This document shows positions 47 through 15,331 of a DNA stretch of 15,331 bases, piece by piece. The notes beneath the pieces are model-generated. The model was not told the origin of the DNA, made no database searches, and worked only from the letters and a program-made list of their open reading frames with translations. The number at the start of each line of letters is the position of its first letter. Within the stretch, counting starts at the first letter, position 1. The DNA is from a virus. Lineage: Duplodnaviria > Heunggongvirae > Uroviricota > Caudoviricetes. The position numbers and the translations under genes were made by a program. The stretch is from the IMG/VR virus record IMGVR_UViG_2617270976_000002, positions 1-15,331 of that record. One strand, 5' to 3'.

Positions 47-1096
47 TCAAACGATTAAATCCTGAACTTCCCTGACTGTCTGCTCAAAACGTCCGGTCTC
101 CAGTTCAACGCCAATCGCACGACGCCCGAGCGCCAGTGCCGCTTTTACCGTTGAACCTGAGCCCATAAAAAAATCTGCAACCAGGTCACCCGGACGACTG
201 CTTGCGCTGATTATCTGCTGCAGCATTTCTGCCGGTTTTTCGCACGGATGTTTCCCGGGATAGAACTGCACCGGTTTATGTGTCCACACATCCGTGTACG
301 GCACCTGCGCCGTCACACCAAAATACCGCCGCAGATGCTTATATTCACTCTGCAGCTCCACATACTGCCGGTTCAGTGACGTATACGTATCCACCAGCTG
401 GTGGTGGGGCTTTTCCAGTTCACCGCGCTGATGTTTCTCTTCTGCCACCCGGGCAAACAGCGACTGTAATTTCAGATAATCGCTTTCGTTCGGTAGCTGC
501 CACTGACTGGCACTGAACCAGTGCGACACCATGTTTTTCTTTCCTGTGGCATCTGCAATCTGTTTTGCCGTTATCCCCAGGGCCGCGCGCGCATCACGAA
601 AGTAAGAAATCAGCGGGGCCATCACATGCTGTTTCAGTGCCCTGCCCTTCGCCTCATACCCGGCATCTTTCGGGCGATACGGCCCCTGATAATGTTCCGC
701 GAACAGAATGCGCTCTGTGGCGGGGAAATATGCCCTCAGGCTTTCCTTGTTGCACCCGTTCCAGCGTCCGGACGGCTTCGCCCAGATAATATGGTTCAGC
801 ACACTGAAGCGTTCACGCATCATGATTTCAATGTCAGACGCCAGGCGATGGCCACAGAACAGGTAAAGACTTCCGGCAGGTTTCAGCACCCGCCAGAACT
901 GCGCCAGACACTGGTCCAGCCACTTCAGGTAATCATCGTCGCCCTTCCACTGGTTATCCCAGCCCTCAGGCTTCACTTTAAAGTACGGCGGGTCCGTGAC
1001 TATCAGGTCAACAGAATTTTCGGGTAACGACCGGATAAATTCCAGGCAGTCAGCGTTGATCAACTCACAACTGGATATTTTTACAGTGTTAAACAT
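47..1096 (-). CDS. DNA N6-adenine methyltransferase (beta-class amino-MTase)
   Basis: 349-aa ORF. Catalytic motif DPPY (…DLIVTDPPYFK…) lies near the N-terminus and the AdoMet-binding motif FxGxG (…DFFMGSGSTVKAA…) near the C-terminus, which is the beta-class order. DPPY rather than SPPY/F favours N6-adenine specificity (family knowledge). Confidence 0.85.
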   Translation of the reverse strand: MFNTVKISSCELINADCLEFIRSLPENSVDLIVTDPPYFKVKPEGWDNQWKGDDDYLKWLDQCLAQFWRVLKPAGSLYLFCGHRLASDIEIMMRERFSVLNHIIWAKPSGRWNGCNKESLRAYFPATERILFAEHYQGPYRPKDAGYEAKGRALKQHVMAPLISYFRDARAALGITAKQIADATGKKNMVSHWFSASQWQLPNESDYLKLQSLFARVAEEKHQRGELEKPHHQLVDTYTSLNRQYVELQSEYKHLRRYFGVTAQVPYTDVWTHKPVQFYPGKHPCEKPAEMLQQIISASSRPGDLVADFFMGSGSTVKAALALGRRAIGVELETGRFEQTVREVQDLIV

Positions 1097-1232
1097 GGAT
1101 CATTAAGCCTGTCTCTGATAGGCTCATTCTGCTTTTGCGCAAAGCAGATGGGCCTGAGGTTTGCTTGTGATCCGGACGCATGAGCAGATGGCTGGTGAGT
1201 GCCCCTAACACCCACCAGCCGCCCATTTACCA

Positions 1233-1261
1233 CAAATAAAAAAGCCTTCAGGACTGAAGGC
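1233..1261 (-). terminator. Rho-independent terminator downstream of the small winged-helix gene
   Basis: Minus strand reads GCCTTCA-GTCC-TGAAGGC followed by TTTTTTATTTG: 7-bp GC-rich stem, 4-nt loop, U-tract. It overlaps the last codons of the 1248..1445 CDS. Confidence 0.6.
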
Positions 1262-1445
1262 GTCTGTAACAACCGAACTGATAGTCTGCCAGACCCGCCA
1301 TAACCAGCTGGGTCAGTATTAACTGGCAGCGTTCGCGTGAAAGGTAAGTATTCTGCGCAATCTCCCTGACTGTCGCCGGGTCGGTAACGCTTAATTCATT
1401 AAACACCACTCTGGCGGTTTCTGTCATATCCTGCTGTTTTAGCAT
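1248..1445 (-). CDS. small winged-helix-like protein (about 66 aa), FaeA/PapI-like by composition
   Basis: ORF track gives 1248..1580, but its first 45 codons run across the terminator hairpin at 1569-1596. The internal ATG at 1443-1445 (MLKQQDMTETARVVF…) follows a purine-rich RBS-like stretch. Family resemblance is weak and from memory. Confidence 0.5.
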   Translation of the reverse strand: MLKQQDMTETARVVFNELSVTDPATVREIAQNTYLSRERCQLILTQLVMAGLADYQFGCYRRLQS

Positions 1446-1568
1446 GTCTTTTTCCCTTTTCCGGTTAACGTGACATACCAATAACTCTTGTCGAAAAAGC
1501 CAGCAAGCTGAAAGACCCGTATTCGCAACCACCAGCGCGTTTACTGTACTGACGCGATTTTCGGACAT

Positions 1569-1596
1569 AAAAAAAACCACCTGGCGGTGGTTTTTT
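1569..1596 (-). terminator. strong intrinsic terminator (bidirectional architecture), candidate tR'-like
   Basis: Plus strand AAAAAAAA-CCACC-TGGC-GGTGG-TTTTTT; on the minus strand the stem is followed by eight U. Sits about 60 nt downstream of the 231-aa ORF stop. Confidence 0.7.
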
Positions 1597-1599
1597 CTT

Positions 1600-1672
1600 A
1601 CTTTGCCATCACGTACAAAATCGGCAAAATATCAGATTTATACGAAACATACGCGATTTAATTGACTTTTGC
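1600..1672 (-). promoter_or_regulatory. candidate late-type promoter between the Q-like gene and the terminator
   Basis: Minus strand carries TTGCAA, 17 nt, TATGTT, and a separate TATAAA, all within about 70 nt upstream of the terminator. Hexamer matching only; position relative to a Q-like gene is the main support. Confidence 0.25.
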
Positions 1673-2353
1673 AATATCTCGTCGTGAAAAGGTCGCTTTT
1701 TGTTGCGCTCTTATTTTCACGGAGCAAATCAAGGATTCTCTATCGAGGCGCTTAAAAATATCGCACATCTCACGCCAGTAGTTCGCATAATTATGGCTCC
1801 AGTTATCAGGCTTAACTCCACACAGTCTGGCAAGCTCCTGTCTCTGGTAGACCTCACACCCGGTAACCCATCCTCTGACATCCTGTGCCGCCAGCCAGAT
1901 CAACTTCTTCACACGCTCCAGCGTTTTCACTGCAATTTTTCTGGAGCCGGACTGAGTTTTAAATTCACTCCACACCCACTGCGTTATCGCGATCTGATGC
2001 TCCCAGCAAATGTTTCCGCCATAACACCACAACAACCACGCCTTCTGATGTTCTTCCAGTTCCAGAACGGCACGCCGCCACGATGATGTTGCAAACTCAA
2101 CAGGACTGACCAGCGCAATTGATGAGCCTTTCGCCAGTGATTGTTTACCCTGGATCGGGGGATTATCCCGCGTGATCATTTTTCCGGTTACCTCATCGCG
2201 GTAACGAATTTTTTTGCGTCTGTAACGCCCTGTATCGAACAGGGCATTTTCCTGCCAGGCTTCCAGCTGGCATTTTGTCGACCCACTGAGATCTGCAGTG
2301 GCAATCATGAGTTGCTCACGAACAAACTGTAAATACTGGTTATTCATGCACAC
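1658..2353 (-). CDS. putative late-gene antiterminator Q-like protein (function uncertain)
   Basis: 231-aa ORF with GTG start. It lies directly downstream of the rusA-like gene, where Q sits in phage 82-type lambdoid phages, and is followed by a promoter-like stretch and a strong terminator. It has no lambda-Q zinc-finger motif, so the function is inferred from synteny only. Confidence 0.4.
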   Translation of the reverse strand: MCMNNQYLQFVREQLMIATADLSGSTKCQLEAWQENALFDTGRYRRKKIRYRDEVTGKMITRDNPPIQGKQSLAKGSSIALVSPVEFATSSWRRAVLELEEHQKAWLLWCYGGNICWEHQIAITQWVWSEFKTQSGSRKIAVKTLERVKKLIWLAAQDVRGWVTGCEVYQRQELARLCGVKPDNWSHNYANYWREMCDIFKRLDRESLICSVKIRAQQKATFSRRDIAKVN

Positions 2354-2621
2354 CCACCTCTGTAATTCTTATCTCCAGCCGTCCACCAGATACTGGCTGG
2401 CCACGTACAATATTGATTTCATCAAACTGCTCATCGTCCATTAACAACCCCGCGTGCGTCAGCGCATCCAGTGGTGCTTTCAGAATATTGTCCAGGTCAC
2501 GACGACGCTTATCCGGTGGCTCTGCAATAATTTTTATTGCCAGCCGTCCGGACAGGCTTAATTTCAGTCGCTGCTGGCGAACAATAAGCGCCACTGAGGG
2601 CTTTCCTAAACTCATATCCAC
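2340..2621 (-). CDS. rusA: RusA-family Holliday-junction resolvase, N-terminally short
   Basis: …AIKIIAEPPDKRRRDLDNILKAPLDALTHAGLLMDDEQFDEINIV…GGRLEIRITE matches the conserved core of E. coli RusA (…[40 protein letters not shown]…GGRLELTITE, recalled). The frame is closed by TGA just upstream of the GTG start, so roughly 30 residues of the usual N-terminus are not encoded. Confidence 0.7.
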   Translation of the reverse strand: MDMSLGKPSVALIVRQQRLKLSLSGRLAIKIIAEPPDKRRRDLDNILKAPLDALTHAGLLMDDEQFDEINIVRGQPVSGGRLEIRITEVGVHE

Positions 2622-3434: not shown

Positions 3435-3668
3435 AGATATGGCCTCAGATTAATGTTAAGCGTCTTGCCGGACGCGTAATGTTAACTGGGGCTTTTCTCT
3501 ATCTGCCTTTTGGTGTTCATGCCTGAGACAGATAGCCTCAAGCACCCGCTGCAATTCTACTTAACTCTCCTTTTCCCGCAAACCGTTTTTATCCCCAGCG
3601 GCAAATCGAATACACCACCAGCGCCACCGCCATCGCAATTCCTACCGTTGTTAATGCTTCAGGCCAGG

Positions 3669-4249: not shown

Positions 4250-4741
4250 TCACTCTCCTTTGATGCGAATGCCAGTGGTACTCATTCTCCTGATTTCCCA
4301 GAGCACACGAGGAACACCACCGTTTCCGACCGGATCGCGTTTACTCCGCAGGGCGACGCTTGATTCCGCCCAGCTTTTTCTTGGAGGAAGCTCTTTCACA
4401 CGAACAAAACCAGCTGCGCGGAGAGATGCTCCTGATTCATCTGCCTGGGTGTACGTAATACAACGTTGATAACCCATAGCCTTTGCTGCCCGCCAGACAG
4501 CACCATAAAGCGCGCTGTTAGCGTTGCGTTCTCCTGTGGTACATGTGCGATTTACTTCAAGCGTTAATCCATCGTCCAAATGTCGTGCAACAGGTCTACC
4601 GGCTGTCGCCACACCTATCAATTCTCCGGCATCATTTCTCAGACCAATGCTGAATTTATGCCCCACCGGGGGTTTATTGTGTCGGTGATGTCTGGATATA
4701 AACGCCTTCGCAACACGAAGAGTAACCGGTGAAATTTGCAT
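4250..4741 (-). CDS. hypothetical protein (about 163 aa), possibly acetyltransferase-like
   Basis: ORF track gives 4250..4780. The ATG at 4739-4741 (MQISPVTLRVAKAF…) has a strong AAGGAGAG RBS and sits 2 nt after the upstream stop, so I prefer it. C-terminal half (…NANSALYGAVWRAAKAMGYQRCITYTQADESGASLRAAGF…) vaguely resembles a GNAT-type motif. Confidence 0.55.
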   Translation of the reverse strand: MQISPVTLRVAKAFISRHHRHNKPPVGHKFSIGLRNDAGELIGVATAGRPVARHLDDGLTLEVNRTCTTGERNANSALYGAVWRAAKAMGYQRCITYTQADESGASLRAAGFVRVKELPPRKSWAESSVALRSKRDPVGNGGVPRVLWEIRRMSTTGIRIKGE

Positions 4742-4743
4742 TC

Positions 4744-5103
4744 TCACTCTCCTTTGATGCCAATGTTTACAGACTGGCAAGCCTCTTTGAGCACCCAGTC
4801 AACAGCGTCTTTCCATGCTCCGGTTTCGACTGGCGGATTCTCACGCTTTACCTGTTCATAAAAGCGCACAGCTTTAACCAGTCCTTCTGATGTCACCGAA
4901 GCTGGCGGGGCCGTGAATAACGCCTGAATTTCATAGTTTGGTCTGTCGTTACAATCCTCTTTTGTCGGGACATATTTCCAGTCACCAACCCACTGCTTCC
5001 CCTGAAAGTCTGTAACGCCTTTTTTCACGTAGCGATATCGCCATGCCACTGGTTTTGCCTGCCCTGCCTTTTCATGCCCTTCCTGATAATTAATCTCGCT
5101 CAT
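4744..5103 (-). CDS. hypothetical protein (119 aa)
   Basis: ORF with ATG start. Ends …NIGIKGE*, the same C-terminal pentapeptide and stop context as the 4250..4741 gene. Confidence 0.6.
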   Translation of the reverse strand: MSEINYQEGHEKAGQAKPVAWRYRYVKKGVTDFQGKQWVGDWKYVPTKEDCNDRPNYEIQALFTAPPASVTSEGLVKAVRFYEQVKRENPPVETGAWKDAVDWVLKEACQSVNIGIKGE

Positions 5104-8897: not shown

Positions 8898-9323
8898 TCA
8901 ATGCACAACCACAATATTTCCCGCCGGGCCACCACGATTCATCTGGTTGAAACCAGCGATCGCCACTGCGACAAAATCATCAGCGTCTCTCACCAGTCGT
9001 TCCCGCGTCTCCACCAGCTCCCGAAAATAAGCTGAACTGTGGCTGCGCATTCGGGCCACCAGCAGAGGCGGCATTGCTTTTTCGATCGCTGGTAACAACG
9101 CCTGAATTTTTTTAACCGCATCAGGAGTGTCTTTCTCCACCCAGCGGAAAATTTTCTGGGTATTGCGAGCCAGGGCTTCCGGATGGCTGTCGTCATATAA
9201 TTCCGGGAACGTCATACCAAGCTCAAAATAAGCCCGGGTTATTTCAGCTGCCGGAACTTTTTCACCGTCCGGATGCGCCCAGGCATTCATCGCCATGCGG
9301 ATGTGCTCATGCCTGATTTTCAT
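8898..9323 (-). CDS. YdaT-like protein (occupies the cII position)
   Basis: 141 aa. MKIRHEHI… start, internal …KKIQALLPAIEKAMPPLL… and C-terminal …VVVH resemble Rac prophage YdaT as I recall it. Start overlaps the Cro-like gene's end by 17 nt. Confidence 0.6.
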   Translation of the reverse strand: MKIRHEHIRMAMNAWAHPDGEKVPAAEITRAYFELGMTFPELYDDSHPEALARNTQKIFRWVEKDTPDAVKKIQALLPAIEKAMPPLLVARMRSHSSAYFRELVETRERLVRDADDFVAVAIAGFNQMNRGGPAGNIVVVH

Positions 9324-12998: not shown

Positions 12999-15331
12999 AT
13001 GAGTAAAGTCTTTATTTGCGCTGCTATTCCTGATGAACAGGCCATAAAAGAAGATAGCGCTGTTGCGGTGGCCACTGCCATTGAAGCTGGTGATGAGCGT
13101 CGCGCACGCGCAAAATTTCATTGGCAATTTCTGGAGCAATTCCCTGCAGCTCAGGACTGCGCTTATAAATTTATTGTCTGTGAGGATAAACCCGGCATAC
13201 CCCGCCCTGCCCTCGATTCCTGGGATGCTGAATATATGCAGGAAAACCGCTGGGATGAGGAGTCTGCTTCCTTTGTCCCGGTTGAGACTGAATCAGATCC
13301 GATGAACGTCACTTTTGACAAGCTGGTCCCTGAAGTACAGAACGCTGTCATGGTTAAGTTCGACACATGTGAAAACATCACCGTTGATATGGTTATTAGC
13401 GCACAGGAATTGTTGCAGGAAGACATGGCAACATTCGACGGACATATCGTTGAAGCGTTGATGAAAATGCCAGAAGTTAACGCCATGTATCCGGAGCTTA
13501 AGTTGCACGCCATTGGGTGGGTTAAGCATAAATGTATTCCTGGTGCTAAATGGCCCGAAATTCAGGCAGAGATGCGCATCTGGAAAAAACGTCGCGAAGG
13601 TGAACGCAAGGAAACCGGAAAATACACGTCTGTTGTTGATCTCGCCCGCGCCAGAGCCAATCAACAGTACACTGAAAATTCAACAGGAAAAATCAGCCCG
13701 GTCATTGCTGCCATTCATCGCGAATACAAGCAGACATGGAAAACACTGGATGACGAACTGGCCTACGCTCTCTGGCCTAGTGATGTGGATGCCGGAAACA
13801 TTGACGGCAGCATCCATCGCTGGGCAAAAAAAGAAGTTATCGACAACGACCGCGAAGACTGGAAGCGTATCTCGGCATCAATGCGCAAACAGCCTGATGC
13901 CCTTCGCTACGACCGCCAAACTATTTTTGGCCTTGTCCGTGAGCGTCCGATCGACATTCACAAAGATCCCGTAGCACTGAACAAATATATCTGCGAATAC
14001 CTGACGACAAAGGGCGTGTTTGAGAATGAAGAAACAGACCTGGGCACTGTTGATGTTCTCCAGTCATCAGAAACACAAACTGATGCAGTGGAAACTGAGG
14101 TATCTGATATCCCAAAAAATGAAACCGCGCCGGAAGCTGAACCATCTGTAGAGCGTGAGGGGCCGTTCTATTTCCTCTTCGCAGATAAGGACGGAGAAAA
14201 ATACGGTCGCGCAAACAAACTCTCTGGTCTGGATAAGGCACTGGCTGCTGGCGCCACTGAAATCACAAAAGAAGAATATTTTGCCCGAAAAAATGGCACA
14301 TACACGGGCTTACCGCAAAATGTAGATACCGCTGAAGATTCAGAACAACCAGAGCCGATAAAAGTTACCGCTGACGAAGTAAACAAAATTATGCAGGCAG
14401 CCAATATCAGCCAGCCTGACGCCGATAAGTTGCTTGCTGCATCACGTGGTGAATTTGTTGAAGGGATTAGTGACCCGAATGATCCGAAATGGGTTAAGGG
14501 GCTCCAGACCCGCGATTCTGTGAACCAGAACCAGCATGAATCGGAACGGAACTACCAAAAAGCGGAACAAAACAGTCCAAATGCGTTACAAAACGAGCCA
14601 GAAACGAAACAGCCTGAACCAGTAGCGCAACAGGAAGTGGAAAAAGTCTGCACCGCCTGCGGTCAGACCGGCGGCGGCAACTGCCCTGATTGTGGCGCGG
14701 TGATGGGCGACGCAACATACCAAGAAACATTCGATGAAGAGTATCAGGTTGAAGTTCAGGAAGATGATCCGGAGGAAATGGAAGGCGCTGAACATCCACA
14801 CAAGGAGAACACTGGCGGCAATCAGCATCACAATAGCGATAATGAAACTGGCGAGACGGCAGATCACCCAATTAAGGTGAACGGTCATCACGAAATCACA
14901 TCCACCAGCAGGACGTGTGACCATCTAATGATCGACCTTGAAACCATGGGAAAAAATCCTGATGCCCCGATCATCTCAATAGGTGCAATATTTTTCGATC
15001 CGCAAACCGGAGATATGGGACCGGAATTTAGTAAGACTATCGATCTGGAAACTGCTGGCGGAGTCATTGATCGGGACACCATTAAATGGTGGCTTAAGCA
15101 ATCACGCGAAGCGCAATCTGCCATTATGACCGATGAAATCCCGTTAGATGATGCACTGTTACAATTGCGGGAATTTATCGACGAAAACTCCGGTGAATTT
15201 TTTGTTCAGGTCTGGGGAAATGGAGCCAACTTCGACAACACGATTTTGCGCCGTTCATACGAACGGCAGGGGATCCCCTGCCCGTGGCGTTACTACAACG
15301 ATCGCGATGTACGCACAATCGTTGAGCTGGG
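12999..15331 (+). CDS. RecE/YdfE-like large early protein (exodeoxyribonuclease VIII-like), 3' end outside the window
   Basis: Hand-translated frame with ATG at 12999-13001 and GAGG RBS, open for at least 777 codons to the window edge. All ORF-track entries in 13063-15124 are short shadows in other frames. N-terminus MSKVFICAAIPDE… matches recalled Qin YdfE; …DADKLLAASRGEFVEGISDPNDPKWVKGLQTRD… matches a recalled RecE segment. The C-terminal part (…HLMIDLETMGKNPDAPIISIGAIFFD…) looks like a DEDD-type 3'-5' exonuclease. Confidence 0.8.
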   Translation, partial: MSKVFICAAIPDEQAIKEDSAVAVATAIEAGDERRARAKFHWQFLEQFPAAQDCAYKFIVCEDKPGIPRPALDSWDAEYMQENRWDEESASFVPVETESDPMNVTFDKLVPEVQNAVMVKFDTCENITVDMVISAQELLQEDMATFDGHIVEALMKMPEVNAMYPELKLHAIGWVKHKCIPGAKWPEIQAEMRIWKKRREGERKETGKYTSVVDLARARANQQYTENSTGKISPVIAAIHREYKQTWKTLDDELAYALWPSDVDAGNIDGSIHRWAKKEVIDNDREDWKRISASMRKQPDALRYDRQTIFGLVRERPIDIHKDPVALNKYICEYLTTKGVFENEETDLGTVDVLQSSETQTDAVETEVSDIPKNETAPEAEPSVEREGPFYFLFADKDGEKYGRANKLSGLDKALAAGATEITKEEYFARKNGTYTGLPQNVDTAEDSEQPEPIKVTADEVNKIMQAANISQPDADKLLAASRGEFVEGISDPNDPKWVKGLQTRDSVNQNQHESERNYQKAEQNSPNALQNEPETKQPEPVAQQEVEKVCTACGQTGGGNCPDCGAVMGDATYQETFDEEYQVEVQEDDPEEMEGAEHPHKENTGGNQHHNSDNETGETADHPIKVNGHHEITSTSRTCDHLMIDLETMGKNPDAPIISIGAIFFDPQTGDMGPEFSKTIDLETAGGVIDRDTIKWWLKQSREAQSAIMTDEIPLDDALLQLREFIDENSGEFFVQVWGNGANFDNTILRRSYERQGIPCPWRYYNDRDVRTIVEL

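What the first reader, a model, noticed from the sequence alone, without database searches (positions are those of the whole stretch)
1233..1672. Small winged-helix gene bracketed by two strong terminators downstream of the putative Q gene
Two strong intrinsic terminators (1569-1596 and 1233-1261) flank a 66-aa gene, with promoter-like hexamers overlapping the 3' end of the 231-aa ORF. This resembles a pR'/tR' late-control module in which a short transcript terminates unless Q-modified polymerase reads through. The unusual part is that the first gene after the terminator is a small regulator rather than lysis genes.
Basis: partly seen in the sequence, partly recalled or inferred. Interest (0 to 1): 0.45.

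Follow-up and report, generated by a model that had tools for sequence, protein, structure and literature searches.

The report
Phage late switch guarding a methylase
This is an ordinary phage-82-type late-gene switch in an E. coli prophage, and just downstream of it lies an apparently undescribed folded RNA that precedes a toxic DNA-methylase gene in many related phages.

Summary
On the minus strand, a Q gene (2347-1658) is followed by promoter-like hexamers, a strong terminator (1598-1569), a 65-aa gene (1445-1248), a second terminator (1261-1233) and a 349-aa DNA methylase (1096-47).

The reading as a pR'/tR' late-control module is well supported. The Q protein is 66% identical to phage 82 Q. 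The DNA after it matches the experimentally studied 82 pR' at 26 of 28 initially transcribed positions, including the sigma-dependent pause element. The predicted terminated RNA is about 70 nt.

The claim that a small regulator as first late gene is unusual does not hold. The same small-gene-plus-methylase cassette sits right after tR' of 82-, lambda- and 21-type Q modules in phiP27, many Stx phages and about 20 enterobacterial species. The methylase belongs to the M.EcoGII family, which is non-specific, toxic and silent in lysogens.

The new result is the 150-nt spacer between the small gene and the methylase (about 1236-1094). It is a conserved multi-helix RNA with strong covariation, has no Rfam match, and abuts the start codon. 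It also occurs without the small gene, usually right after a terminator.

The small protein's role is unknown. It may be a Com-like regulator or a self-contained moron. Its winged-helix assignment is weak.

The parts
1658..2347 (-). Q antiterminator gene, phage-82 family (229 aa from the ATG at 2347; the maximal ORF starts at GTG 2353).
   Evidence: Pfam PF06323 E = 4.8e-82. PHROG 304, 'anti-termination protein Q-like', E = 5e-103. 66% identity to phage 82 Q, record X92588.
1646..1674 (-). pR'-type late promoter: -35 TTGCAA (1674-1669), 17-bp spacer (the position of the Q-binding element in 82 pR'), -10 TATGTT (1651-1646).
   Evidence: Aligns with TTGCAA-17-TATATT of the phage-82-like PhiR47_2, whose Q is 97% identical to Q82. 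TTGCAAAA and ATTRAA are invariant in 7 Q82-family relatives. QBE position taken from PMC4914094.
1612..1639 (-). Initially transcribed region with the sigma70-dependent pause element. Predicted +1 is A1639. Extended -10-like TG (1634-1633) plus TATTTT (1631-1626), discriminator GCC (1625-1623), predicted pause at +25 (1615).
   Evidence: 26 of 28 positions are identical to the 82-like sequence. GCC falls at +15-17, the -10-like element carries an extended TG, and a pause is expected at +25/26, all as described for 82 pR' in PMC5001585.
1569..1598 (-). tR'-type intrinsic terminator (two-way hairpin with an A-tract before and a U8 tract after). The predicted terminated RNA is about 70 nt (1639 to about 1570).
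   Evidence: -16.7 kcal/mol, z = -4.9. Every Q82-family relative has a terminator 45-110 nt after the conserved pR'. The mosaic junction with other phages lies here.
1470..1507 (-). Conserved non-coding block upstream of the small gene: CTTGCTG-N-CAAGAGTTATTGGTATGTCAC. It could be read as -35 TTGCTG (1506-1501), 17 bp, TATTGG (1483-1478). Function unknown; candidate weak promoter or operator.
   Evidence: Conserved across 18 species-level loci with no RNA structure signal. Retained in distant small-gene-bearing cassettes. Only 6 of 12 match to the sigma70 consensus.
1248..1445 (-). 65-aa small protein, a putative winged helix-turn-helix (PHROG 331, unknown function; NCBI name 'TrmB family transcriptional regulator').
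   Evidence: The ORF is kept in 20 or more species-level loci and always sits next to the methylase leader.
1233..1261 (-). Second intrinsic terminator (t2). The hairpin at 1261-1244 overlaps the small gene's stop codon and is followed by UUUUUUAUUU.
   Evidence: The hairpin is kept by compensatory changes across species, but the U-tract is strong only in the E. coli lineage. It is absent in subclade L302-L311.
1094..1236 (-). Conserved structured leader RNA of the methylase. P1 1225-1221/1153-1149; P2 1220-1209/1201-1190; P3 1187-1179/1169-1161; P4 1147-1141/1135-1129; P5 1128-1121/1109-1102. It ends at the methylase ATG (1096-1094).
   Evidence: No conserved ORF. No Rfam match.
47..1096 (-). 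M.EcoGII-family beta-class N6-adenine DNA methyltransferase (349 aa).
   Evidence: Pfam PF01555 E = 2e-44. 96% identity to the phage 1720a-02 methylase, which PMC5778455 names as very similar to M.EcoGII.

Best explanation
The window comes from a lambdoid, Stx-phage-like E. coli prophage that carries no stx in its closest relative. The finding is its late-gene control point.

Shown by sequence and homology:
- A phage-82-family Q gene ends at 1658.
- A sigma70 promoter homologous to 82 pR' overlaps its 3' end, with -35 at 1674-1669 and -10 at 1651-1646.
- The transcript should start at A1639 and carries the 82-type pause element: TG-N-TATTTT, then the GCC discriminator, with the pause expected near +25.
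- It runs into a strong intrinsic terminator at 1598-1569.

Inferred from the phage 82, lambda and Stx-phage paradigms:
- In the lysogen the promoter fires constitutively and makes only a 70-nt RNA.
- After induction, Q binds between -35 and -10, loads onto the paused polymerase and makes it terminator-resistant.
- The polymerase then reads through tR' and through the second terminator at 1261-1233.

Shown: the first cargo of this late transcript is a portable cassette made of a 65-aa putative DNA-binding protein, a 140-nt structured leader and an M.EcoGII-type methylase. It is found directly behind tR' of 82-, lambda- and 21-type Q modules.

Inferred: M.EcoGII-type enzymes methylate adenine in any sequence context and are harmful when expressed constitutively. 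The two terminators and the folded leader, whose last helix abuts the start codon and which has no Shine-Dalgarno sequence, would therefore form layered safeguards that restrict methylase synthesis to lytic growth. There the enzyme would protect progeny DNA from restriction.

Speculative: the small protein is an accessory regulator of this cassette. It could be a Com-like modulator of leader and methylase translation, or a lysogen-expressed moron using the conserved block at 1507-1470 as its own promoter, with t2 insulating the methylase from that transcription.
For: Q identity.

pR' and pause-element homology. The positions match those published for 82 pR' (PMC5001585). The QBE location comes (PMC4914094).

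Terminators.

Short pR'-tR' RNAs are the rule in lambda, 82, 21, Stx phages and Gifsy-1 (PMC7547250).

Downstream late genes in the closest genome are tRNAs, nanS-p esterase, holin and lysozyme. The phiP27 arrangement is the same, with stx2e present.

Cassette linkage: the methylase follows the small gene in 22 of 23 loci. The cassette sits behind three pR' types. The mosaic junction lies at tR'.

Methylase family and its silence and toxicity.

Leader RNA: 82% of cells are paired against 32-46% in the slid controls. The covariation score is 0.306 against 0.10 or less. All 12 P2 pairs covary. The model hits 73 of 80 divergent methylase loci immediately upstream of the start codon.

In lineages without the small gene, the leader is directly preceded by a terminator, often tR' itself.

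Precedent for a small regulator plus a toxic adenine modifier or non-specific adenine methylase under RNA-level control: Mu com-mom and FluMu com-hin1523.
Against: - No experiment was done here. Promoter activity, pausing, termination efficiency and Q read-through are all inferred.
- The promoter hexamers match only 8 of 12 consensus positions, and the spacer (QBE region) differs from phage 82, so Q specificity is untested.
- t2 has a canonical U-tract only in the E. coli lineage. It is weak or absent in other lineages, so a second terminator is not essential to the cassette.
- The winged-helix fold of the small protein is unconfirmed.
- The leader occurs without the small gene, so that protein is not required for leader function.
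- P5 is only 64% paired in the diverse set. The minimum-energy fold of the window's own leader uses alternative pairings. The exact way the start codon is occluded is therefore unsettled.
Confidence: 0.78

Rival explanations
1. The small gene is a classical moron: a self-contained unit of promoter, gene and terminator inserted in the late operon and expressed from the prophage. Under this reading the two hairpins simply delimit it. The 1598-1569 hairpin ends the upstream unit, and 1261-1233 is the moron's own terminator. Any relation to Q control or to the methylase is incidental.
For: A conserved non-coding block lies 25-60 nt upstream of the start codon with -35-like and -10-like spacing of 17 bp. 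It is kept across genera without RNA structure. A canonical terminator follows directly after the stop codon in the E. coli lineage.
Against: The block matches the sigma70 consensus at only 6 of 12 positions and lacks the -7 T. The small gene is found next to the methylase leader in 22 of 23 loci, whatever lies upstream, so the association is not incidental. Subclade L302-L311 keeps the block but has no terminator after the gene.
Confidence: 0.3
2. The small protein is a functional analogue of phage Mu Com. It would bind the methylase leader RNA, or the DNA encoding it, and switch the leader between a closed fold that hides the start codon and an open fold. Methylase would then be translated only once enough of the small protein has been made from the same late transcript.
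For: There is strict one-way linkage: the small gene is essentially always next to leader plus methylase. The leader is structured, has no Shine-Dalgarno sequence, and its helix abuts the AUG. A mutually exclusive helix between the 3' strand of P1 and the 5' strand of P5 is 89.6% paired, with 20 A-U and 20 G-C pairs at one position. Precedents are com-mom and com-hin1523.
Against: The leader and methylase exist in several clades without the small gene. There is no sequence or fold similarity to Com, which is a zinc finger. No RNA-binding evidence exists. The A-U/G-C split at the alternative helix could be a single clade-level event.
Confidence: 0.25
3. The two hairpins are not regulatory terminators read through by Q. 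They would be generic RNA-stabilising or processing hairpins, or recombination hot spots that mark module junctions, and the methylase would be transcribed from its own promoter inside the 150-nt spacer.
For: Module junctions do coincide with the tR' hairpin. Terminator-like matches are common in the window, 23 against 16 expected. The spacer is highly conserved and could hide a promoter.
Against: The spacer's conservation follows RNA base-pairing rules, with G-U pairs on the sense strand and compensatory changes. That is not the pattern of a promoter. No sigma70-like site was found there. M.EcoGI and M.EcoGII are reported silent in lysogens. The position and shape of the first hairpin match tR' of all Q82-family relatives.
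Confidence: 0.07

Closest known systems
Phage 82 late control module (Q82, 82 pR', sigma70-dependent pause at +25, downstream terminator)
   Same: The Q protein belongs to the same family at 66% identity. The -35 is identical (TTGCAA), the spacing is 17 bp, and +1 to +17 are identical, including the extended -10-like TGATATTTT and the GCC discriminator. A T occupies +25. An intrinsic terminator lies within 100 nt.
   Different: The spacer between -35 and -10, where the Q-binding element sits, differs at about half its positions. The terminator sequence is unrelated. The cargo after the terminator is the small-gene and methylase cassette, not lysis genes (one search shows the holin directly after tR' in the 82-like phage).
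Lambda 6S RNA, StxS of Stx phages and IsrK of Gifsy-1 (short RNAs made from pR' and ended at tR')
   Same: A predicted constitutive short transcript (about 70 nt, 1639-1570) ending at tR' (PMC7547250). A sub-threshold Rfam isrK hit spans exactly this interval.
   Different: No sequence homology to StxS. The isrK score is 19 bits against a 50-bit cut-off. No evidence of Hfq binding or any trans function.
phiP27 L23-L24, phage 1720a-02 and the M.EcoGI/M.EcoGII prophage loci (small 'TrmB-like' gene plus non-specific adenine methylase between Q and tRNAs/stx)
   Same: The cassette is the same at 91-96% DNA identity. The methylase is 96% identical to that of 1720a-02. Position is the same: after tR' and before ileZ/argN/argO.
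   Different: Those phages carry other Q types. phiP27 has a short Q plus a GIY-YIG gene, and 1720a-02 has a different Q. The published descriptions seen here do not mention the terminators or the leader RNA.
Phage Mu com-mom operon and the Mu-like com-hin1523 (non-specific adenine methylase) operons
   Same: A small regulatory protein gene lies immediately upstream of a host-toxic, late-expressed adenine-modifying enzyme whose start region is buried in RNA structure (PMC3299994, PMC6483171).
   Different: Com is a zinc finger that binds a short stem-loop. Here the protein is a putative winged helix with no similarity to Com. The leader is a five-helix, 140-nt element, and it also exists without the small gene. 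Control is by Q antitermination rather than by the C protein, Dam and OxyR.
Morons of lambdoid phages (promoter-gene-terminator inserts)
   Same: A small accessory gene flanked by terminators, with a conserved upstream non-coding block, inserted between core modules.
   Different: Its promoter is unproven, and it is tightly linked to a second cargo gene rather than free-standing.

Membership tests
Q82-type antitermination module | Q protein homologous to phage 82 Q (Pfam PF06323) | tested here: met
   E = 4.8e-82 with full-length coverage. 66% identity to X92588 Q.
Q82-type antitermination module | Sigma70 late promoter immediately after or overlapping the 3' end of Q | tested here: met
   TTGCAA-17-TATGTT at 1674-1646 aligns with the 82-like promoter and is conserved in 7 relatives. 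The consensus match alone is only 8 of 12. Activity was not tested.
Q82-type antitermination module | Promoter-proximal sigma-dependent pause element: -10-like with extended TG, GCC at +15-17, pause at +25 | tested here: met
   Positions +1 to +17 are identical to the 82-like sequence, and +25 is T. The positions are those described in PMC5001585. Pausing itself was not tested.
Q82-type antitermination module | Q-binding element between -35 and -10 recognised by the cognate Q | not testable with these tools
   The spacer is partly conserved (AAGTCAATTAAAT against AACTGGATTAAAA in the 82-like phage). Binding needs an experiment.
Q82-type antitermination module | Intrinsic terminator shortly downstream that is read through only with Q | tested here: inconclusive
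   The terminator is present and strong. Q-dependent read-through was not tested.
Intrinsic (Rho-independent) terminators | GC-rich stem-loop followed directly by a U-tract | tested here: met
   1598-1569: 11-13 bp stem plus U8. 1261-1233: 7 bp stem plus U6AU3.
Winged helix-turn-helix regulators (TrmB / MarR / HTH_24) | Significant profile match or a confident three-helix-plus-wing fold | tested here: inconclusive
   Best Pfam hit is TrmB at 19.7 bits against a 25.6 cut-off, E = 7.6e-4. AlphaFold gives pLDDT 65.5 with three helices in the expected order. Foldseek and the PDB profile search find nothing.
M.EcoGII-type non-specific adenine DNA methyltransferases | Beta-class N6_N4 methylase of 349 aa closely related to M.EcoGI/GII | tested here: met
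   PF01555 E = 2e-44. 96% identity to the 1720a-02 methylase, which PMC5778455 names as very similar. Identity to M.EcoGII itself and lack of sequence specificity were not measured.
Rfam RNA families (any) | Covariance-model match of the 1236-1094 leader | tested here: not met
   No hit at E <= 1 in the window. No hit at E <= 0.1 in six diverse loci.
Mu Com/mom-type translational control | Small protein homologous to Com (zinc finger) that binds the leader of the modifier gene | tested here: not met
   No Com-like domain was found. The resemblance is in gene order and logic only.
Riboswitch | Conserved aptamer with covariation plus a ligand | tested here: inconclusive
   The P1-P2-P3 three-way junction has invariant junction nucleotides and covariation. 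A candidate alternative helix exists. No ligand is known and no known class matches.

The most novel reading that the evidence does not exclude
The 140-nt element between the second terminator and the methylase start (about 1236-1094) may be a previously undescribed class of cis-regulatory RNA switch. It has a three-way junction (P1-P3), P4, and a start-codon-proximal helix that competes with an alternative pairing between the 3' strand of P1 and the 5' strand of P5. It would gate translation of M.EcoGII-type non-specific adenine methylases in lambdoid and Stx phages. The gating could respond to a trans factor (the adjacent 65-aa protein where present, the methylase itself, or a metabolite such as SAM) or to co-transcriptional folding behind Q-modified polymerase.
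Probability: 0.45. Interest if true: 0.72.

Novelty: new member of a known kind. Interest (0 to 1): 0.5.

Why it matters
The late switch itself is textbook biology. This copy only adds one more allele of the Q82/pR' pair, with a different putative Q-binding spacer. That could be useful for studying Q specificity.

The more consequential point concerns the silent M.EcoGII-family methylases. These are a widely used reagent enzyme, and they form the gene block just upstream of stx in many Shiga-toxin phages. Here they sit behind layered controls, one of which is a conserved structured RNA with no Rfam family and no literature hit in the single sequence-string search made here.

If that RNA is a switch, it would explain how phages keep a genome-wide adenine methylase harmless in lysogens. 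It would also give a testable handle on anti-restriction timing, and a new RNA motif present in roughly half of sequenced E. coli genomes.

Tried and rejected
- **Leader as a small protein gene.** The ATG-GGC-GGC-TGG reading (MGGWWVL...) has stop codons or frameshifts in most relatives, and no frame on either strand is open throughout. Rejected.
- **The 106/110-aa extended form of the small gene.** The upstream part is out of frame or absent in other species. Rejected.
- **RNA structure in the small gene's 5' region.** RNAalifold finds none, at -0.5 kcal/mol with no covariation.
- **Sigma54 or sigmaE reading of the conserved upstream block.** By eye there is no conserved GG at -24 and no GAACTT motif. 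Dropped.
- **Structure-based function for the small protein.** The AlphaFold model is low confidence, Foldseek against the PDB gives only E > 6, and the PDB profile search finds nothing.
- **PDB sequence search for a solved Q82 relative.** None found.
- **First collection scan for the leader.** It used a wrong gap length and found nothing, so one scan was wasted. The corrected pattern worked.
- **Long-range pairing between the invariant P3-loop GGUCAC-AAGC and the pre-AUG GCUUAC-UGAUC.** The window's minimum-energy fold suggests it. The variants seen do not clearly compensate. Left open, not claimed.
- **Literature string search for the leader sequence.** No hits.
- **Rfam sub-threshold hits at the tR' hairpin** (STnc370, Phe_leader, isrK). 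The terminator hairpin drives the scores. Not taken as membership.
Full report
**What is there.** All genes in the left part of the window run on the minus strand. The order is:
- a 5'-truncated rusA (2621-2340)
- a Q gene (2347-1658)
- a 60-nt gap
- a strong hairpin with a U8 tract (1598-1569)
- a 65-aa ORF (1445-1248)
- a second hairpin with a U-tract (1261-1233) that overlaps that ORF's stop codon
- a 150-nt spacer
- a 349-aa DNA methylase (1096-47)

The first hairpin folds at -16.7 kcal/mol (z = -4.9). The second folds at -10.5 kcal/mol (z about -2). Two small corrections apply. The small protein is 65 aa. Q most likely starts at the ATG at 2347 (229 aa), as in phage 82 and in RefSeq.

**Context.** The window is a lambdoid prophage of E. 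coli. Further right it has a repressor, Cro-like and YdaT genes, replication genes and a nin region. The closest complete genome is 98% identical. Beyond the methylase it continues with tRNA-Ile/Arg/Arg, a nanS-p-type esterase, DUF1378, DUF826, holin and lysozyme. That is the late region typical of Stx phages, but without stx. phiP27 has the same small gene plus methylase, followed by ileZ, argO, stx2e and lysis genes.

**The Q/pR'/tR' module.**
- The protein matches Pfam PF06323 (E = 5e-82) and PHROG 304. It is 66% identical to phage 82 Q.
- The phage 82 GenBank record stops at the end of Q. Phage PhiR47_2 encodes a Q that is 97% identical to Q82 and supplies the downstream sequence.
- Aligned with it, the window shows -35 TTGCAA (identical), a 17-bp spacer and -10 TATGTT (TATATT in the 82-like phage).
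- The following stretch, AAATCTGATATTTTGCCGATTTTGTACG, is identical to the 82-like phage at 26 of 28 positions.
- The published description of 82 pR' lists a -10-like pause element closer to consensus than lambda's, with an extended -10. It also lists a GCC discriminator at +15-17 and a pause at +25/26 (PMC5001585).
- This maps exactly if +1 is the first A of AAATC (window 1639). Then TG is at +6/+7, TATTTT at +9 to +14, GCC at +15 to +17, and T at +25 (1615).
- The 82 Q-binding element lies between -35 and -10 (PMC4914094). That spacer is only partly conserved here, as expected for a 66%-identical Q allele.
- Seven Q82-family relatives all keep TTGCAAAA, ATTRAA, the -10 and TGATAT, and each has its own terminator 45-110 nt downstream.
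- The hexamers alone match only 8 of 12 consensus positions and are not above chance. The case rests on homology with an experimentally defined promoter.
- The predicted terminated RNA is about 70 nt (1639 to about 1570). It is the counterpart of lambda 6S RNA, StxS and IsrK (PMC7547250).

No activity was measured here. Constitutive firing, pausing and Q-dependent read-through are inferences from the family.

**The cargo is a portable cassette.** BLAST hits to Stx phages cover the window only from the methylase up to about 1594. Hits to other Q82-type phages cover only from about 1589 rightwards. The module junction therefore lies in the tR' hairpin.

A genome-wide search with the 65-aa protein returned 23 loci from different Enterobacterales. 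In 22 of them an M.EcoGII-like methylase starts about 150 nt after the small gene. The DNA upstream carries 82-type, lambda-type (TAAATT...AACGATGGG) or 21-like (TAAGAGT) late promoters. Loci with the 82-type motif are the ones with a Q82-family gene.

A small gene as the first late gene is thus common. Parts of this region are found in 2655 of 5426 complete E. coli genomes, and 280 carry the full 1.4 kb.

**The methylase.** It is 349 aa and belongs to the beta class (PF01555). It is 96% identical to the methylase of phage 1720a-02. The M.EcoGII paper names that enzyme as very similar to M.EcoGII and M.EcoGI. It reports that these enzymes methylate adenine in any context, are not expressed in the lysogen, and are deleterious when expressed constitutively (PMC5778455). 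That gives a rationale for tight, lytic-only expression.

**The small protein.**
- The family is small, with 327 clusters, and is restricted to Enterobacterales. It is named 'TrmB family transcriptional regulator' by NCBI and 'unknown function' by PHROGs.
- Pfam hits are sub-threshold: TrmB scores 19.7 bits against a 25.6 cut-off.
- AlphaFold gives three helices in winged-helix order, but with pLDDT 65.
- Foldseek and PDB profile searches find nothing.
- The helix ERCQLILTQLVMAGL is invariant.
- Upstream lies a conserved non-coding block, CTTGCTG-N12-CCAGAGTTATCTGTATGTCAC (1507-1470 in the window). It has no RNA structure signal and is retained even in distant cassettes. It can be read as a -35 and -10 pair 17 bp apart, but it matches the consensus at only 6 of 12 positions. 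Its role remains open: weak promoter, operator or processing site.

**The unexpected part: a structured leader RNA.**
- *Conservation.* The spacer between the small gene and the methylase is more conserved than either coding region.
- *Not coding.* The one plausible ORF is broken in most relatives, and no frame on either strand stays open.
- *Further examples.* A pattern scan and a methylase-based scan of viral contigs yielded over 100 distinct variants, including very divergent ones.
- *Covariance model.* A model built from 36 representatives hit 73 of 80 divergent methylase loci at 52-117 bits. Every hit lay immediately upstream of the start codon.
- *Pair statistics on that alignment.* 82% of cells form standard pairs, against 32-46% when partners are slid. 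The covariation score is 0.306 against 0.10 or less. There are 221 double-change cells against 54 or fewer. All 12 pairs of P2 covary, and P3 and P4 also covary. This alignment is model-fitted, which favours the structure.
- *Independent check.* The MAFFT alignment gives the same direction: 88% paired against 26-48%. RNAalifold recovers P1, P2 and P4 on its own.
- *Strand.* G-U pairs place the structure on the sense strand.
- *Architecture.* P1 encloses P2 and P3, forming a three-way junction with invariant junction nucleotides. P4 is a hairpin. The P5 region ends 6-8 nt before the AUG, and in some clades it contains the AUG. There is no Shine-Dalgarno sequence.
- *Uncertain parts.* P5 is the weakest helix, at 64% paired. 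A mutually exclusive helix between the 3' strand of P1 and the 5' strand of P5 is 89.6% paired, with 20 A-U and 20 G-C pairs at one position. The minimum-energy fold of the window's own sequence uses this alternative. A conformational switch is therefore plausible but unproven.
- *Known families.* No Rfam family matches. A literature string search found nothing.

**Relation between terminators, small gene and leader.**
- In clades that lack the small gene, the leader starts right after a terminator, often tR' itself. Examples are L308 and L250, with the layout 82-type pR', tR', UGUGRAA, leader, methylase. The basic unit therefore looks like terminator, leader, methylase.
- In the main enterobacterial clade, the small gene with its upstream block lies between tR' and a second hairpin.
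- That second hairpin has a full U-tract only in the E. coli lineage. Elsewhere it is followed by UUUCUGCUGUG or is absent.
- For this window, t2 has all the features of a working terminator. Its most economical role is to keep any Q-independent transcription of the small gene out of the methylase. That role is inferred.

**How it most likely works.**
- Shown by sequence: an 82-type Q, pR', pause element and tR'; a portable cassette as first late cargo; a structured leader at the methylase start.
- Inferred from family knowledge: there is constitutive short transcription in the lysogen. Q loads at the +25 pause after induction. The polymerase reads through both terminators. The methylase is then made late and protects progeny DNA from restriction.
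- Speculative: the small protein modulates the leader, in the manner of Mu Com acting on mom mRNA. Mu-like prophages pair a com homologue with a non-specific adenine methylase (PMC3299994, PMC6483171). Alternatively, it is a lysogen-expressed moron.

**Verdict.** The pR'/tR' interpretation is well supported by homology. The 'unusual' aspect is ordinary for Stx-like phages. The late switch is a new member of a known kind. The leader RNA found while checking the second terminator is the item that deserves follow-up.

Noticed in passing
window 1094-1236 (minus strand); also L009-L031 and L112-L311: A 140-nt conserved, multi-helix RNA lies immediately upstream of the M.EcoGII-type methylase start codon. 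It shows strong covariation, has no Rfam match and has no Shine-Dalgarno sequence. It is found with or without the small gene, usually right after a terminator.
   Followed up: yes
window 1470-1507 (minus strand): A conserved non-coding block, CTTGCTG-N12-(C)CAGAGTTAYNTGTRTGTCAC, lies upstream of the small gene. It is kept across genera, shows no RNA structure, and matches sigma70 hexamers at only 6 of 12 positions with 17-bp spacing. Its function is unexplained.
   Followed up: partly
window 391-398, 1212-1219, 1529-1536, 3615-3622, 9011-9018, 9056-9063, 14902-14909 (minus strand); 397-404 (plus strand): There are eight Chi octamers (GCTGGTGG) in 15.3 kb against 0.5 expected by chance. Seven of them are co-oriented with transcription. 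One is the 5' strand of leader helix P2, and one lies between tR' and the small gene.
   Followed up: partly
window 1599-1631 (minus strand): The predicted pR' transcript forms a hairpin (UAUUUUGCC...GGCAAAGUA) between the pause site and tR'. Q82-family relatives with long leaders appear to keep a hairpin there with different sequences. This was judged by eye only.
   Followed up: partly
window 1527-1651: Sub-threshold Rfam hits are centred on the tR' hairpin. isrK spans 1570-1648 on the minus strand (19 bits against a 50-bit cut-off), exactly the predicted pR'-tR' RNA. STnc370 lies on the plus strand (36 bits against 54). Phe_leader scores 28 bits against 55.
   Followed up: partly
window 2340-2621 (minus strand): The rusA ORF is only 93 aa and matches positions 32-124 of the 124-position Pfam RusA profile. 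The closest genome encodes a 120-aa RusA. The 5' end seems truncated or replaced, and a 90-aa ORF with no Pfam match overlaps it at 2509-2781.
   Followed up: no
window 4250-4780 (minus strand): A 176-aa nin-region ORF has a sub-threshold match to the Pfam Mom protein family (22.7 bits against a 27.1 cut-off, E = 8.6e-5). This hints at a possible second DNA-modification function in the same prophage.
   Followed up: no
window 1098-1101 (minus strand): A GATC (Dam) site lies directly before the methylase ATG (UGAUCCAUG). It is conserved in most leader variants as CUGAUCUAUG. The same bases are complementary to the 3' end of 16S rRNA (GAUCA).
   Followed up: no
L302-L311 (e.g. L311 about 1030-1050): In one divergent subclade there is no hairpin between the small gene and the leader. 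In some members (L310, L311) the gene's stop codon is the UGA inside the conserved UGUGAAA at the 5' edge of the leader. In others (L304, L307) a TAG stop lies a few nt upstream of it.
   Followed up: partly
L284 2457-2517: A full-score rydB sRNA gene (79 bits) lies about 230 nt downstream of the methylase in one divergent locus. This may mark a prophage boundary or integration site.
   Followed up: no
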